IMG/VR virus record: IMGVR_UViG_2681813227_000023
Coordinates: 1 to 22,725 of that record
Source of the DNA: a virus
Taxonomy: Duplodnaviria; Heunggongvirae; Uroviricota; Caudoviricetes
DNA length: 22,725 nt
Reading direction: 5' to 3' (one strand)
The position numbers were made by a program, and so were the translations under genes. Positions 3,693 to 14,457 of the stretch are shown piece after piece (position 1 is the first letter of the stretch; each line of letters begins with the position of its first letter). The notes beneath the pieces are model-generated. The model did not search any database. It was not told where the DNA came from and saw nothing but the letters and a program-made list of their open reading frames with translations.

Positions 3693-3711
3693 AACTTGTT
3701 ACCTCGGTCTG

Positions 3712-3726
3712 TTACCGTTGAGGTAA
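3712..3726. promoter_or_regulatory. Operator-like palindrome TTACCgttgaGGTAA (leftward operator region, site 1)
   Basis: Perfect 5-bp inverted half-sites with 5-bp spacer; one of six copies in the window. An extra TTACC half-site lies at 3699..3703. Confidence 0.5.
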
Positions 3727-3774
3727 TAATTATGCGTATTTGGTTTGATGTCAATAGATATGAGTTAAAAAAAA

Positions 3775-3789
3775 TTACCCATTAGGTAA
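3775..3789. promoter_or_regulatory. Operator-like palindrome TTACCcattaGGTAA (leftward operator region, site 2)
   Basis: Same motif, 63 bp centre-to-centre from site 1, between the repressor-gene terminator and the first leftward ORF. Confidence 0.5.
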
Positions 3790-3802
3790 TAGTATAGGCA
3801 AT

Positions 3803-3826
3803 AAAAAAGCCGCCAGAAGGCGGCTT
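3803..3826 (-). terminator. Rho-independent terminator downstream of the repressor gene
   Basis: On the minus strand GCCGCC-TTCT-GGCGGC followed by TTTTTT, about 20 nt after the repressor stop codon. Confidence 0.65.
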
Positions 3827-3846
3827 ACTTACTGAAAAGTATGATT

Positions 3847-4431
3847 TTATTGTTTGTTTTTTTCGTTCTGGTTGATGACAAATTCAATGTAACTTTCGAT
3901 CTTTGCTTTCTCGGTTTCAGGTAACAATGCGTAGCGCGAGCGGTCATAGTTGATAGTTGCAGGGTCGTGCGGGTGAATCAGTAGTTCATATCCGTGACGC
4001 CCGAATGCGGATGCAACATTCTCCAGGGTGGAAATGGAAACGCTGACCTCATTGTTTAACAGGCGGCTGATTGTCACCTGGGCGACGCCGGATGCGCGGT
4101 GAAGTTTTCCCTGTGTTGAAAGGTCGCGGCTTTCGCTCATCCAGCGTTCCAGGTTGTGAGCCGCCAGCTGACCAATGTCGCTTGGGCCGACAGGCTGAAA
4201 ACCTTCCTGAGAAAGCGAGCGATCGATATCAAGCCAGTTACGGGGTTTATTGGCGGCAGCTTCAATTTTTCGCGCAACCTGGTCGCCGATAACCTTCTTG
4301 CCAAGAGCCCAGCGGTTTACCAGATTTGCCTGAGTTCCAAGTTTTTCTGCCATCCGCGTCTGAACACCATTGAATTCACGGTCGATCAAGTCGTTGAGAT
4401 TTTGCCTGCGGACGTCCTGGATACTTTTCAT
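3847..4431 (-). CDS. Putative immunity repressor with two HTH-like segments and no S24 peptidase domain (194 aa)
   Basis: HTH-like stretches QTRMAEKLGTQANLVNRW and VAQVTISRLLNNEVSVSISTLENVASAFG. Transcribed divergently from a Cro-like gene across an operator-bearing intergenic region. No G-S-M / Ser-Lys dyad autocleavage motif seen. Confidence 0.65.
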   Translation of the reverse strand: MKSIQDVRRQNLNDLIDREFNGVQTRMAEKLGTQANLVNRWALGKKVIGDQVARKIEAAANKPRNWLDIDRSLSQEGFQPVGPSDIGQLAAHNLERWMSESRDLSTQGKLHRASGVAQVTISRLLNNEVSVSISTLENVASAFGRHGYELLIHPHDPATINYDRSRYALLPETEKAKIESYIEFVINQNEKNKQ

Positions 4432-4486
4432 TTTCTGGAAAATCGCCTCATATATGAATCAGTAGATGATTCAATTTAAAGCAATA

Positions 4487-4501
4487 TTACCCAACAGGTA
4501 A
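4487..4501. promoter_or_regulatory. Operator-like palindrome TTACCcaacaGGTAA in the repressor/cro intergenic region
   Basis: Same motif as above; further GGTAA (4514..4518) and TTACC (4535..4539) half-sites follow. Confidence 0.5.
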
Positions 4502-4585
4502 ATGCACCCCACAGGTAACTATCCTTGATTTTTGTTACCTTATGGGTGAATATTTATTATCTGAAATAAATATCAGGCAATAGCT

Positions 4586-4816
4586 ATGAGCGATAACGGA
4601 CATTTCGATTTCAAAAAGCACTGGCTTGCACTTACTCCGGATGAGCGTGAAGCCTTCGCACAGGAAGCCGGAACGACGAGTCACTATATCCAGACTCACT
4701 TAACAGGTAAGCGCAAAATGCCAGGTAAGGTATTGATGAATGGGCTTTTTAAAGCCTGTAAAACAAGACAATGGCTGCGCTCAAAAGCAGAACTGGCATA
4801 CTTCTTCTACTCATGA
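4586..4816 (+). CDS. Cro-like small DNA-binding regulator (76 aa)
   Basis: Small basic protein transcribed divergently from the repressor; HTH-like segment FAQEAGTTSHYIQTHLTGKRK. Assignment rests mainly on position. Confidence 0.55.
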   Translation: MSDNGHFDFKKHWLALTPDEREAFAQEAGTTSHYIQTHLTGKRKMPGKVLMNGLFKACKTRQWLRSKAELAYFFYS

Positions 4817-13378: not shown

Positions 13379-13425
13379 TCCGTTAGCGGGGATAATGACG
13401 GAGATATCCTCTGGTGAGGATAAAA

Positions 13426-13452
13426 CAAAGCCAGCTCATCGGCTGGCTGTTT
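13426..13452. terminator. Bidirectional terminator-like hairpin between convergent terL and the minus-strand gene
   Basis: CCAGC-tcatcg-GCTGG stem-loop with U-rich runs on both strands (ctgtttg on plus; ctttgtttta on minus). Confidence 0.4.
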
Positions 13453-13465
13453 GTGACATGTCACG
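13452..13465. promoter_or_regulatory. 14-bp motif TGTGACATGTCACG (copy 2)
   Basis: Identical to the 11187..11200 copy; lies just beyond the stop of the minus-strand gene 13469..13840. Confidence 0.4.
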
Positions 13466-13468
13466 GTG

Positions 13469-13840
13469 TTATTGCTCGCTTAACTTCTGCTTCAGCAAGT
13501 AACCTTCAAGCATCCAGATTTTGTTTACAGCATTCTGCCGGGCAATCTTCCGACCAATTTCCGCATCAAAGTTTTCCGGGCTTGCACAGGCGCTCTCTCC
13601 GGTGACGGTGAAGCCGTTGCGCAGCACCAGAACGCAGAACGTCAGCAGAGAAAGTGATTCGTGCGGCTGGTAGTTTACCTCTCCGCCAGTATGTTTCGCT
13701 TTTATGGCTACGCCAAAGACACCATCTTCTGCTGTGAAATATGCCTCCTGAGCAATAATGCTCTCGATATGGTCTGGCGTAACGCGCGGCGCGGCTAAAC
13801 CTTTAGCCTGAATTTCAGATTCAATGTCTTTGTCACTCAT
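13469..13840 (-). CDS. Conserved phage protein of unknown function (123 aa), possibly Gp49-like (N4 gp49 / Sf6 gp66 family)
   Basis: ATG 13840 with AAGGTGAG SD. Family assignment is from memory of similar prophage proteins and is not verified. Opposite orientation to the flanking packaging and structural genes. Confidence 0.5.
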   Translation of the reverse strand: MSDKDIESEIQAKGLAAPRVTPDHIESIIAQEAYFTAEDGVFGVAIKAKHTGGEVNYQPHESLSLLTFCVLVLRNGFTVTGESACASPENFDAEIGRKIARQNAVNKIWMLEGYLLKQKLSEQ

Positions 13841-13856
13841 AGTCTAATCTCACCTT

Positions 13857-13880
13857 AAAAAAATGCCCGGCGAACCGGGC
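13857..13880 (-). terminator. Terminator-like hairpin on the minus strand (GCCCGG-TTCG-CCGGGC plus T7), between the tRNA and the downstream minus-strand gene
   Basis: Read on the minus strand the stem-loop is followed by TTTTTTT, then directly by the SD and ATG of the 13469..13840 gene. Confidence 0.5.
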
Positions 13881-14043
13881 GAACTGGAAGCAATGAGTTA
13901 TGCCTTCCGTGGCTGTACTGGTTTACAGCATGAAGTCATCGCAATGGCGTCCTGCTGTAAAAAGGGCGGTGATAGTCCTTCAAGGGAAACCATCACCGCC
14001 AAGCCCCTGGAACTTCTGGCATCACGGTCCTTAGGCGTGATTC

Positions 14044-14120
14044 TGGCGTGGCATGCAGGATTCGAACCTGCGACCAACCGCTTAGAAGGCGGTTGCTCTG
14101 TCCAACTGAGCTAATGCCAC
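14044..14120 (-). tRNA. tRNA-Arg (anticodon UCU), 77 nt with encoded CCA
   Basis: Minus-strand fold: acceptor GTGGCAT/ATGCCAC, D-stem GCTC/GAGC, anticodon stem ACCGC/GCGGT with loop CTTCTAA (anticodon TCT), T-arm GCAGG-TTCGAAT-CCTGC, discriminator G, CCA. Sequence differs from what I recall of E. coli argU. Confidence 0.85.
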
Positions 14121-14442
14121 AACGCTGAGAGCACTTAGCCTGTTAAGGCGCCACACTTTGTCGCGGCTCCATAAATGCTCTCATCGTTGTACCCTCGTCT
14201 CTTCCGAGGCGTCACACCGAATCGCCGGGATGGTGAATCCCCGTGCGCGGAATAAAACCGCTCGACTTGCACATTCCGGCTACCTGGTTCGTTTGCCCGA
14301 GCAAGGGAGGGTGCCCCTTAAACGTATCCAGACCGCTATCGGCGCATGTGCCATACGCCGTACTGCTCAAAATAAAAGCTCACTCCACCTGTTCAATTTA
14401 ACGACAAGCCAGTCAGGTTAGTAACCGGAATGAACTCTTTGG

Positions 14443-14457
14443 TTACCTGAAAGGTAA
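14443..14457. promoter_or_regulatory. Operator-like palindrome TTACCtgaaaGGTAA upstream of the morphogenesis operon
   Basis: Sixth copy of the TTACC-N5-GGTAA motif, about 90 bp upstream of the first late ORF. Confidence 0.45.

What the first reader, a model, noticed from the sequence alone, without database searches (positions are those of the whole stretch)
3699..14457. Six TTACC-N5-GGTAA palindromes, including copies far outside the immunity region
Perfect 15-bp palindromes of this form occur at 3712, 3775, 4487, 6818, 6880 and 14443. Three lie where lambdoid operators are expected: two left of the repressor gene, one in the repressor/cro intergenic region. The other three are unexpected: two downstream of the P-like gene, one overlapping the ribosome-binding site of the 6898 gene, and one upstream of the morphogenesis operon. 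Two pairs are spaced 62-63 bp centre to centre. A lambda-type CI normally binds only OL and OR, so a motif reaching replication-distal and late promoters suggests one repressor silencing several operons, or a distinct regulator.
Basis: seen in the sequence. Interest (0 to 1): 0.6.

Follow-up and report, generated by a model that had tools for sequence, protein, structure and literature searches.

The report
Repressor operators of an epsilon15-like phage
The repeated TTACC-N5-GGTAA palindromes are real and are most likely the binding sites of this phage's own repressor, but their spread across several promoters is normal for epsilon15/phiV10-type phages and is already annotated in the epsilon15 reference genome.

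Summary
All six palindromes are at the stated coordinates, and there is a seventh perfect copy at 11278 (7 observed, 0.01 expected). Four degenerate copies lie at 4504, 4535, 4872 and 11296. All 11 sites fall in the 8% of the window that is non-coding.

The window is a phiV10/epsilon15-type temperate podophage (Uetakevirus), not a lambdoid. Its 194-aa repressor is a full-length homologue of the solved Rep of Salmonella phage SPC32H (PDB 5D50). Rep is a tetramer inactivated by an antirepressor, and it has no autocleavage domain.

The epsilon15 RefSeq record already annotates the same motif as "repressor / lysogeny" binding sites at equivalent positions. Six genomes from four host genera, with repressors 42-100% identical, keep the motif at those positions.

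At three promoters the last T of the -10 is the first T of an operator. At two of them a second operator lies 62-63 bp upstream, so the pair brackets the promoter. Terminators separate the operons and no antiterminator was found among the proteins tested, so each promoter probably needs its own operator.

The half-site follows the Rep N-terminal domain into unrelated phages, where it occurs only beside the repressor gene.

Verdict: already known, low interest. Binding has not been shown experimentally here.

The parts
3847..4431 (-). Rep repressor gene (194 aa): N-terminal HTH DNA-binding domain, middle HTH_3-like dimerisation domain, C-terminal tetramerisation / antirepressor-binding domain
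   Evidence: matches PDB 5D50 (SPC32H Rep), E 4e-42, residues 1-190 against 2-197. HTH_3 at 106-147, a weak YdaS-type HTH at 21-61, no Peptidase_S24; 100% identical to the phiV10 and ZX5 repressors.
3712..3726 (.). OL proximal operator TTACCGTTGAGGTAA. It abuts the -10 of the leftward promoter PL and covers the start region.
   Evidence: PL has -35 TTGACA at 3754-3749 and -10 AATTAT at 3731-3726. The T at 3726 is shared with the operator.
3775..3789 (.). OL distal operator TTACCCATTAGGTAA, 63 bp (centre to centre) upstream of the proximal one and upstream of the PL -35
   Evidence: The half-sites are invariant in 5 divergent genomes.
3726..3754 (-). PL promoter (TTGACA-17-AATTAT) for the leftward early operon (p39, p38, recE, recT ...)
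   Evidence: 10 of 12 match. The -35 TATTGAC is invariant.
3807..3826 (-). Terminator after the rep gene; separates the rep transcript from PL
   Evidence: Annotated in phiV10.
4487..4501 (.). OR3-like operator (perfect), nearest the rep gene
4504..4518 (.). OR2-like operator GCACCCCACAGGTAA (2 mismatches), 17 bp from OR3. The equivalent site is perfect in epsilon15, SPC32H and BUCT711.
4535..4549 (.). OR1-like operator TTACCTTATGGGTGA (1 mismatch), lying inside the core of the rightward promoter PR
   Evidence: PR is either TTGTTA 4532-4537 / TATTAT 4555-4560 (the scan's call) or TTGATT 4525-4530 with a 17-nt spacer and GAATAT (my reading).
4586..4816 (+). cro-like gene (76 aa), which may also use the same operators
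   Evidence: phrog_35 'transcriptional repressor', E 5.6e-13. AGTTSHYIQ-HLT invariant.
4838..4857 (+). Terminator after the cro-like gene
   Evidence: phiV10 annotation
4872..4886 (.). Degenerate operator GCACCTCAAAGGTAA in the 'distal' position upstream of the replication-gene promoter (TTGACC 4904-4909 / CAAAAT 4927-4932)
   Evidence: The equivalent site has 1 mismatch in phiV10, Tyrion and BUCT711.
6786..6805 (+). Short terminator (GCGC-GATA-GCGC followed by seven T) after the P-like gene
   Evidence: Annotated in phiV10. Invariant.
6818..6832 (.). Distal operator of the promoter for the 6898 operon
6852..6880 (+). Promoter TTGATT-17-TTTAAT for the 6898 (DUF1064) operon. The scan missed it because the -10 has T at position 2.
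   Evidence: Read from the sequence. TATTGA and the -10 junction are invariant.
6880..6894 (.). Proximal operator. It shares T6880 with the -10, and its right half GAGGTAA doubles as the Shine-Dalgarno of the 6898 gene. It lies 62 bp from the distal site.
   Evidence: The 62-bp spacing holds in all 6 genomes.
11241..11258 (+). Terminator after the p55-like regulator gene
11270..11292 (+). Extended -10 promoter TGgTACTAT (11270-11278) fused to perfect operator TTACCACAACGGTAA (11278-11292) upstream of terS.
   Evidence: The epsilon15 equivalent at 12-27 is annotated as a repressor site.
11296..11310 (.). Second terS operator TTACCACGGTGGTTA (1 mismatch), over the terS ribosome-binding site and start codon
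14443..14457 (.). Operator at the 5' edge of the conserved regulatory block upstream of the gp3-like and portal genes
   Evidence: The epsilon15 equivalent at 2931-2947 is annotated as a repressor site.

Best explanation
The palindromes are the operators (17-bp consensus ATTACC-N5-GGTAAT) of the phage's own Rep repressor, encoded at 3847-4431.

Rep belongs to the epsilon15/SPC32H Rep family. It has an N-terminal helix-turn-helix domain that reads the TTACC half-site, a middle dimerisation domain and a C-terminal tetramerisation domain. It is switched off by an antirepressor rather than by RecA-stimulated self-cleavage.

Intrinsic terminators cut this genome into separate transcription units, each with its own sigma-70-type promoter. 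No N- or Q-type antiterminator was seen among the proteins tested. Lysogeny therefore probably requires Rep to sit on every lytic promoter, not only on PL and PR.

Shown by the sequence:
- At PL, at the promoter of the 6898 operon and at the terS promoter, an operator starts at the last T of the -10. It would cover the transcription start.
- At PL and at the 6898 promoter, a second operator lies 62-63 bp upstream, about six helical turns away. The two operators bracket the RNA polymerase site.
- At the 6898 and terS genes the operator also overlaps the ribosome-binding site.

Inferred, not shown:
- Rep occupies all of these sites in a lysogen.
- One tetramer, which has two DNA-binding pairs, bridges a 62-63-bp operator pair.
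- The cro-like protein may use the same sites during lytic growth.
For: 1. The motif is far above chance and lies only in non-coding DNA.

2. The epsilon15 RefSeq record annotates 'protein_bind: repressor, lysogeny' at 12-27, 2931-2947, 19895-19911, 32479-32494, 32554-32570, 32616-32632 and 35906-35922. These are the same TTACC-N5-GGTAA motif at positions equivalent to window 11278, 14443, 3712/3775 and 6818.

3. Six Uetakevirus genomes from E. coli, Enterobacter, Klebsiella and Salmonella, with Rep 42-100% identical, each carry 13-18 hits (up to one mismatch) against fewer than 1 expected, at equivalent positions. The N5 spacers vary while the half-sites are invariant. MAFFT alignments made without anchoring on the motif show the same pattern.

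4. Rep is a full-length homologue of the solved SPC32H Rep. According to PMC9638917, that protein binds palindromic DNA sites as a tetramer. PMC9986798 describes its domain layout, with the two pairs of dimerisation domains about 100 Å apart.

5. Rep's N-terminal domain, including an NLVNRW helix, is invariant across the family.

6. The half-site follows that domain into unrelated phages. Pseudomonas phage PseuP_224 has a cI made of a Rep-like N-terminal domain plus an S24 peptidase. It has TTACC-N4-GGTAA only in two clusters flanking cI, and it has no homologue of the cro-like protein or p55. Psychrobacter phage pOW20-A has wTACC-N5-GGTAw on both flanks of its cI.

7. The geometry is that of repression: operators are fused to the -10 or lie inside the promoter core.

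8. The ZX5 repressor is 100% identical to the window's Rep. Overexpressing it abolished free phage and lowered holin and endolysin mRNA by more than 99.9% (PMC9782041).
Against: - I could not retrieve any direct binding data (EMSA, footprint or ChIP) for the dispersed sites. The three primary papers (Kropinski 2007, Kim & Ryu 2013, Kim 2016) are not in the library. The epsilon15 annotation is itself a bioinformatic prediction.
- The cro-like protein is as conserved as Rep's N-terminal domain, so covariation within the genus cannot separate the two.
- The link between the N-terminal domain and the half-site in unrelated phages rests on two clear cases. Mcat9 is only partial, and H-19B uses a different half-site.
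- The promoters are consensus matches, not mapped transcription starts. The simple scan found no more promoter-like sites than in shuffled sequence overall.
- No convincing sigma-70 promoter was found next to 14443.
- The ZX5 result does not separate direct from indirect repression.
- The absence of an antiterminator rests on PHROG/Pfam scans of about a dozen proteins, not the whole genome.
Confidence: 0.85

Rival explanations
1. The sites are shared operators. Rep uses them in lysogeny, and the 76-aa cro-like protein binds the same palindromes during lytic growth to turn down early transcription, as lambda CI and Cro share OR and OL. This adds to the main explanation rather than replacing it.
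For: The cro-like protein belongs to a PHROG 'transcriptional repressor' family. Its putative HTH (AGTTSHYIQ-HLT) is invariant in genomes that all keep the same half-site. OR has three sites of graded quality, as in lambdoid switches.
Against: PseuP_224 keeps the half-site without any cro-like homologue, so this protein is not needed to explain the motif. There are no binding data. The protein has no Pfam hit.
Confidence: 0.35
2. The dispersed copies at 6818/6880, 11278 and 14443 are bound by a distinct regulator and not by Rep. Candidates are the p55-like 'transcriptional regulator', the PerC-like activator, or a host factor. In this view the sites time middle and late transcription.
For: p55 and the PerC-like protein are predicted transcription regulators. 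The region after 14443 lacks a good -35, so an activator is probably needed there.
Against: The dispersed copies cannot be told apart in sequence from those flanking the rep gene. They sit on or just after the -10, which is a repressor position and not an activator position. The half-site tracks the Rep N-terminal domain in phages that lack p55. From my own knowledge, no E. coli regulator has this consensus.
Confidence: 0.07
3. The palindromes are chance matches or structural elements such as small hairpins, or they are only conserved junction sequences where gene modules are exchanged between phages, with no protein binding.
For: The cassettes do sit at mosaic junctions. The same promoter-operator block precedes a DUF1064 gene in some genomes and a RuvC-like resolvase gene in others.
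Against: Seven matches occur where 0.01 is expected. The half-sites are invariant while the spacers vary. A 5-bp stem is too weak to act as a hairpin signal. The exact phasing with the -10 is not explained by a junction role.
Confidence: 0.03

Closest known systems
Repressor operators of Salmonella phage epsilon15 (gp38) and of SPC32H Rep (PDB 5D50/5D4Z)
   Same: Same genus (Uetakevirus) and same palindrome, TTACC-N5-GGTAA. The positions match: before terS, before gp3/portal, left and right of the repressor gene, and after the replication genes. They are annotated as 'repressor / lysogeny' binding sites in NC_004775. The repressor is homologous over its full length. From memory, unverified here: the epsilon15 genome paper (Kropinski et al. 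2007, Virology 369:234) gives the operator consensus as ATTACCWDWWNGGTAAT.
   Different: The window's Rep is only about 42% identical overall to the epsilon15/SPC32H protein, and 53% identical in the N-terminal domain. OL has two sites here against three in epsilon15. OR2 and the post-cro site are more degenerate here. The phiV10-type records carry no operator annotation.
Lambda CI with OL/OR
   Same: A divergent repressor/cro arrangement, a three-site OR overlapping PR, and operators left of the repressor gene controlling a leftward early promoter.
   Different: There is no S24 autocleavage domain. The repressor is a tetramer controlled by an antirepressor. Operators also lie at four further promoter regions. 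No N/Q-type antiterminator was detected among the proteins scanned. PseuP_224 is the lambda-like counterpart: it has the same type of DNA-binding domain, an S24 domain and a Q gene, and its sites occur only at OL and OR.
Stoperators of mycobacteriophage L5 and other cluster A phages (from my own knowledge)
   Same: One repressor has many binding sites spread across the whole prophage, and not only in the immunity region.
   Different: Stoperators are asymmetric 13-bp sites oriented with transcription. There are about 24-30 of them per genome, many within or between genes, and they act by blocking elongation. Here the sites are palindromic, few in number, and placed on promoter cores.
Rco of Bacillus plasmid pLS20 and other tetrameric looping repressors (PMC9986798)
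   Same: An N-terminal HTH with a C-terminal tetramerisation fold shared with SPC32H Rep. Rco binds two operators 75 bp apart around divergent promoters and loops the DNA between them. That parallels the 62-63-bp operator pairs here.
   Different: Rco recognises arrays of direct repeats and needs several tetramers. Looping or bridging by Rep has not been shown.

Membership tests
Uetakevirus (epsilon15/SPC32H-type) Rep operator set | Palindromic operator ATTACC-N5-GGTAAT | tested here: met
   7 perfect sites in the window; across 54 perfect sites in 6 genomes, A at -1 in 40 and T at +1 in 32.
Uetakevirus (epsilon15/SPC32H-type) Rep operator set | A cognate Rep-family repressor (N-terminal DNA-binding domain, middle dimerisation domain, C-terminal tetramerisation / Ant-binding domain) encoded between OL and OR | tested here: met
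   (5D50, E 4e-42, full length), and the alignment
Uetakevirus (epsilon15/SPC32H-type) Rep operator set | Sites at the positions annotated as repressor-binding in epsilon15 (terS, gp3/portal, OL, post-replication) | tested here: met
Uetakevirus (epsilon15/SPC32H-type) Rep operator set | Physical binding of Rep to the sites and repression of the adjacent promoters | not testable with these tools
   Indirect evidence only: overexpression of the identical ZX5 repressor silences lysis genes. The primary SPC32H papers are not held.
Uetakevirus (epsilon15/SPC32H-type) Rep operator set | LexA-controlled small antirepressor (Ant) as the inducer | not tested
   The ant region lies outside the window. 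phiV10 and SPC32H annotate antirepressor genes near the tail-fibre gene.
Lambda-type CI / OL-OR switch | Repressor with a C-terminal S24 (LexA-like) autocleavage domain | tested here: not met
   no Peptidase_S24. Positive control: the domain is found in PseuP_224 cI.
Lambda-type CI / OL-OR switch | Operators confined to the two promoter regions flanking the repressor gene | tested here: not met
   further sites at 4872, 6818/6880, 11278/11296 and 14443
Mycobacteriophage-type stoperators | Asymmetric, orientation-dependent sites scattered within transcription units | tested here: not met
   The sites are palindromic, all are intergenic, and they overlap promoter cores.

The most novel reading that the evidence does not exclude
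The paired operators form a conserved 'promoter clamp' cassette: distal operator, about 27 nt, -35 (TATTGAnn), 17 nt, then a -10 whose last T is the first T of the proximal operator. The centre-to-centre distance is fixed at 62-63 bp in every genome examined.

In this reading, a single Rep tetramer bridges both operators with its two DNA-binding pairs and encloses the RNA polymerase site. The cassette has been copied to three or four places in the genome. The operator and recognition helix are invariant while the rest of Rep has diverged to 42% identity, so phages of E. coli, Enterobacter, Klebsiella and Salmonella would be cross-immune.

I could not tell whether this cassette is described in the primary literature.
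Probability: 0.3. Interest if true: 0.4.

Novelty: already known. Interest (0 to 1): 0.2.

Why it matters
This finding mainly serves as an annotation transfer. The phiV10-type records, including the phage used for E. coli O157 reporter and typing work, carry no operator features, and this window shows where they are. It also corrects the terS start.

There is one point of wider interest. The same repressor DNA-binding domain gives a two-locus regulon in a lambdoid phage that has a Q antiterminator. In a phage built from terminator-insulated operons, it gives a genome-wide, promoter-by-promoter regulon. This illustrates how genome architecture sets the size of a repressor's regulon.

The fixed 62-63-bp operator pairs give a simple, testable prediction for how the tetrameric Rep represses. 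A 2023 paper states that this mechanism is not well characterised.

Tried and rejected
- **Primary papers.** I tried to read the epsilon15 genome paper (PubMed 17825342 / PMC2698709), Kim & Ryu 2013 (PMC3807360) and Kim et al. 2016 (PMC4983836). None is held.
- **Text searches.** Searches for the recalled consensus string and for 'operator' with epsilon15 or SPC32H found no paper giving operator sequences.
- **Covariation between regulator and motif.** This failed as a discriminator within the genus, because Rep's N-terminal domain and the cro-like protein are both invariant where it matters. I replaced it with a test on phages that share only the N-terminal domain.
- **H-19B cI (34% identity).** It does not share the half-site, and Mcat9 shares it only partly. 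The link between domain and half-site therefore holds only for closer relatives.
- **Rfam scan of the terL/portal spacer.** It found only the tRNA, so there is no known structured RNA next to 14443.
- **Sigma-70 promoter next to 14443.** None was convincing. The best candidate is an extended -10, TGgTTAAAT, at 14505-14513, with no -35.
- **Hairpin or terminator reading of the palindromes.** Rejected: the stems are 5 bp, no T-run follows, and the real terminators lie separately nearby.
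Full report
**1. Observation**

The pattern TTACC-N5-GGTAA occurs perfectly at 3712, 3775, 4487, 6818, 6880 and 14443, as reported. A seventh copy lies at 11278. Seven matches compare with 0.01 expected from dinucleotide shuffles. Even given the real half-site counts (40 TTACC, 44 GGTAA), only 0.08 palindromes are expected.

Relaxing the match adds 4535 and 11296 with one mismatch. It also adds 4504 and 4872 with two mismatches, both keeping ACC-N5-GGTAA. All eleven sites lie wholly in the 8.1% of the window that is non-coding. 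The other twelve two-mismatch hits are all inside genes and match the chance expectation. The spacings of 63 bp and 62 bp, and the overlap of 6880 with the ribosome-binding site of the 6898 gene, are correct.

**2. What the window is**

The region is about 98% identical to Escherichia phage phiV10 and its relatives PAS61, phiv142-3 and ZX5. These are temperate podophages of the genus Uetakevirus, whose founding member is Salmonella phage epsilon15. The window is not lambdoid.

The 194-aa protein encoded at 3847-4431 is 100% identical to the phiV10 and ZX5 repressors. It is a full-length homologue of Rep of Salmonella phage SPC32H (PDB 5D50, E 4e-42). It has an HTH_3-like middle domain, a weak YdaS/Cro-type HTH near the N-terminus, and no S24 peptidase domain.

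Two papers held in the library summarise SPC32H Rep. It is a concentration-dependent dimer/tetramer that binds palindromic sites as a tetramer. The N-terminal domains that pair on DNA come from different dimers. A tetrameric antirepressor, Ant, disassembles it (PMC9638917). Its layout is a DNA-binding domain, a middle dimerisation domain and a p53-like tetramerisation domain, with the two pairs of middle domains about 100 Å apart. The same source says its repression mechanism 'has not been extensively characterized' (PMC9986798).

**3. The dispersed sites are already annotated in the family**

The epsilon15 RefSeq record carries seven 'protein_bind: repressor, lysogeny' features:
- before terS (12-27);
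- before gp3/portal (2931-2947);
- before the tail fibre gene (19895-19911);
- three left of the repressor gene (32479-32494, 32554-32570, 32616-32632);
- one after the replication genes (35906-35922).

All seven are TTACC-N5-GGTAA. From memory, unverified here, the epsilon15 genome paper reports the consensus ATTACCWDWWNGGTAAT. The flanks of 54 perfect sites collected here give the same 17-mer.

I counted the motif in six genomes covering every identity class of the repressor: the window, phiV10, Enterobacter phage Tyrion (78%), Klebsiella phage BUCT711 (45%), epsilon15 and SPC32H (42%). Each of the five complete genomes has 13-18 hits with up to one mismatch, against fewer than 1 expected. 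The hits fall at the same places:
- terS;
- gp3/portal;
- the ant/tail-fibre region;
- the lysis cassette (often TCACC);
- int (GGTAT);
- OL, with 2-3 sites;
- OR, with 3 sites spaced 17 and about 30 bp;
- a post-cro site;
- a post-replication pair exactly 62 bp apart in every genome.

**4. Anatomy**

*The cassette.* Anchored alignments and un-anchored MAFFT alignments show one recurring arrangement. It reads: distal operator, about 27 nt, a -35 within TATTGAnn, a 17-nt spacer, then a -10 whose last T is the first T of the proximal operator.

*The copies in the window:*
- **PL:** -35 TTGACA 3754-3749, -10 AATTAT 3731-3726, operators 3726-3712 and 3789-3775.
- **The 6898-operon promoter:** -35 TTGATT 6852-6857, -10 TTTAAT 6875-6880, operators 6880-6894 and 6818-6832. 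This is my reading. The scan missed it because position 2 of the -10 is T.
- **A degenerate third copy after the cro terminator:** operator 4872, -35 TTGACC 4904-4909, -10 CAAAAT 4927-4932.
- **terS:** an extended -10, TGgTACTAT (11270-11278), fused in the same way to operator 11278. A second operator at 11296 lies over the ribosome-binding site and start codon.

*What is conserved.* In the MAFFT alignments the invariant islands are the terminator, the four half-sites, the -35 and the -10 junction. The N5 spacers and the DNA between elements vary.

*OR.* OR1 (4535) lies inside the PR core. OR2 (4504) and OR3 (4487) follow towards the rep gene.

*The portal site.* Site 14443 is the 5' edge of a block of about 75 nt that is nearly invariant in all six genomes, while the DNA upstream of it is unrelated between genomes. 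No good sigma-70 promoter is visible there.

**5. Why the sites are dispersed (inference)**

Terminators follow rep, the cro-like gene, the P-like gene and the p55-like gene. Each downstream block begins with its own promoter-operator unit. I scanned about a dozen small early and regulatory proteins against PHROGs and Pfam and found no N- or Q-type antiterminator. This was not a scan of the whole genome.

In lambda, holding PL and PR is enough, because everything downstream depends on antitermination. Here each promoter would have to be held separately.

**6. Which protein binds**

Within the genus, both the Rep N-terminal domain (invariant NLVNRW) and the cro-like protein (invariant AGTTSHYIQ-HLT) are conserved. 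Covariation therefore cannot separate them. I used phages that share only the Rep N-terminal domain:
- **Pseudomonas phage PseuP_224.** It is a lambdoid siphophage with a Q gene. Its cI combines a Rep-like N-terminal domain (39% identity) with an S24 peptidase. It has TTACC-N4-GGTAA only in two clusters flanking cI: 4 hits against 0.32 expected. It has no homologue of the cro-like protein or p55.
- **Psychrobacter phage pOW20-A.** It has wTACC-N5-GGTAw on both flanks of its cI.
- **Mcat9.** It shows only partial matches.
- **H-19B.** Its cI is 34% identical and it uses TTATC-type half-sites.

So the half-site goes with the Rep-type DNA-binding domain, and the dispersal goes with the Uetakevirus genome layout.

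Functionally, overexpressing the identical ZX5 repressor abolished free phage and cut holin and endolysin mRNA by more than 99.9% (PMC9782041). This does not show whether the repression is direct.

**7. Rivals**
- Shared use of the sites by the cro-like protein is plausible and compatible with the main explanation.
- A distinct regulator for the dispersed sites is unlikely. Those sites cannot be told apart from OL and OR in sequence, they sit in repressor positions, and the half-site tracks Rep's domain.
- Chance or a purely structural role is excluded by the statistics and by the conservation pattern.

**8. Verdict**

The lambdoid framing and the claim that the sites are unexpected are wrong.

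The feature is a known, annotated property of epsilon15-type phages, so novelty is 'already known' and interest is low.

What may be new is the exact cassette geometry: the -10/operator fusion and the fixed 62-63-bp pairs. It predicts that one Rep tetramer bridges a pair of operators. I could not check this against the primary papers.

Noticed in passing
window 14044-14120 (-): A tRNA-Arg (anticodon TCT) lies in the variable spacer between the terminase and portal genes. SPC32H annotates the same tRNA. The phiV10 RefSeq record instead has a hypothetical CDS (p04) over this region, which is probably a mis-annotation.
   Followed up: partly
window 5488-5619: Three adjoining tandem-repeat arrays lie inside the DnaT-like replication initiator gene: 18 bp x 2.8 copies, 24 bp x 2.6 copies at 100% identity, and 12 bp x 2.4 copies. 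They look like origin iterons embedded in the initiator gene, as in lambda O.
   Followed up: no
window 11232-11315: The longest terS ORF starts at TTG 11232 and would include the terminator at 11241-11258 and both operators. The start homologous to epsilon15 and Tyrion terS (MPAEPK) is ATG 11313. The phiV10 terS annotation (41..715) therefore appears over-extended.
   Followed up: partly
window 14458-14535: A non-coding block of about 75 nt downstream of the 14443 operator, including catatgtggttaaattggtaataatttaattgcgtacggag, is nearly invariant in six genomes whose repressors are only 42% identical. It contains an extended -10 candidate (TGgTTAAAT, 14505-14513) with no -35. A lone GGTAA half-site at 14515-14519 lies in the 62-bp register from 14443. 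This may be an activator-dependent late promoter and leader.
   Followed up: partly
L008 (Pseudomonas phage PseuP_224) 10906-11820; L011 (Psychrobacter phage pOW20-A) 1379-1443 and 2286-2324: Repressors in unrelated phages that share only the Rep N-terminal domain, fused to an S24 peptidase in PseuP_224, are flanked by TTACC-N4-GGTAA or wTACC-N5-GGTAw palindromes. These occur only next to the repressor gene. In PseuP_224 the same half-site is used with a spacer one base shorter, and the dimerisation domain is different.
   Followed up: yes
window 1542-3241 (-): recT (1542-2423) and recE (2420-3241) are separate genes here, as in Tyrion. The phiV10 record annotates a single fused RecE-RecT gene (p37).
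   Followed up: no
L003 (phiV10) 20485-20523, outside the window: The operator near the antirepressor region sits at the centre of a much longer perfect palindrome, GAGTGCTTATAT-TTACCTTTGCGGTAA-ATATAAGCACTC.
   Followed up: no
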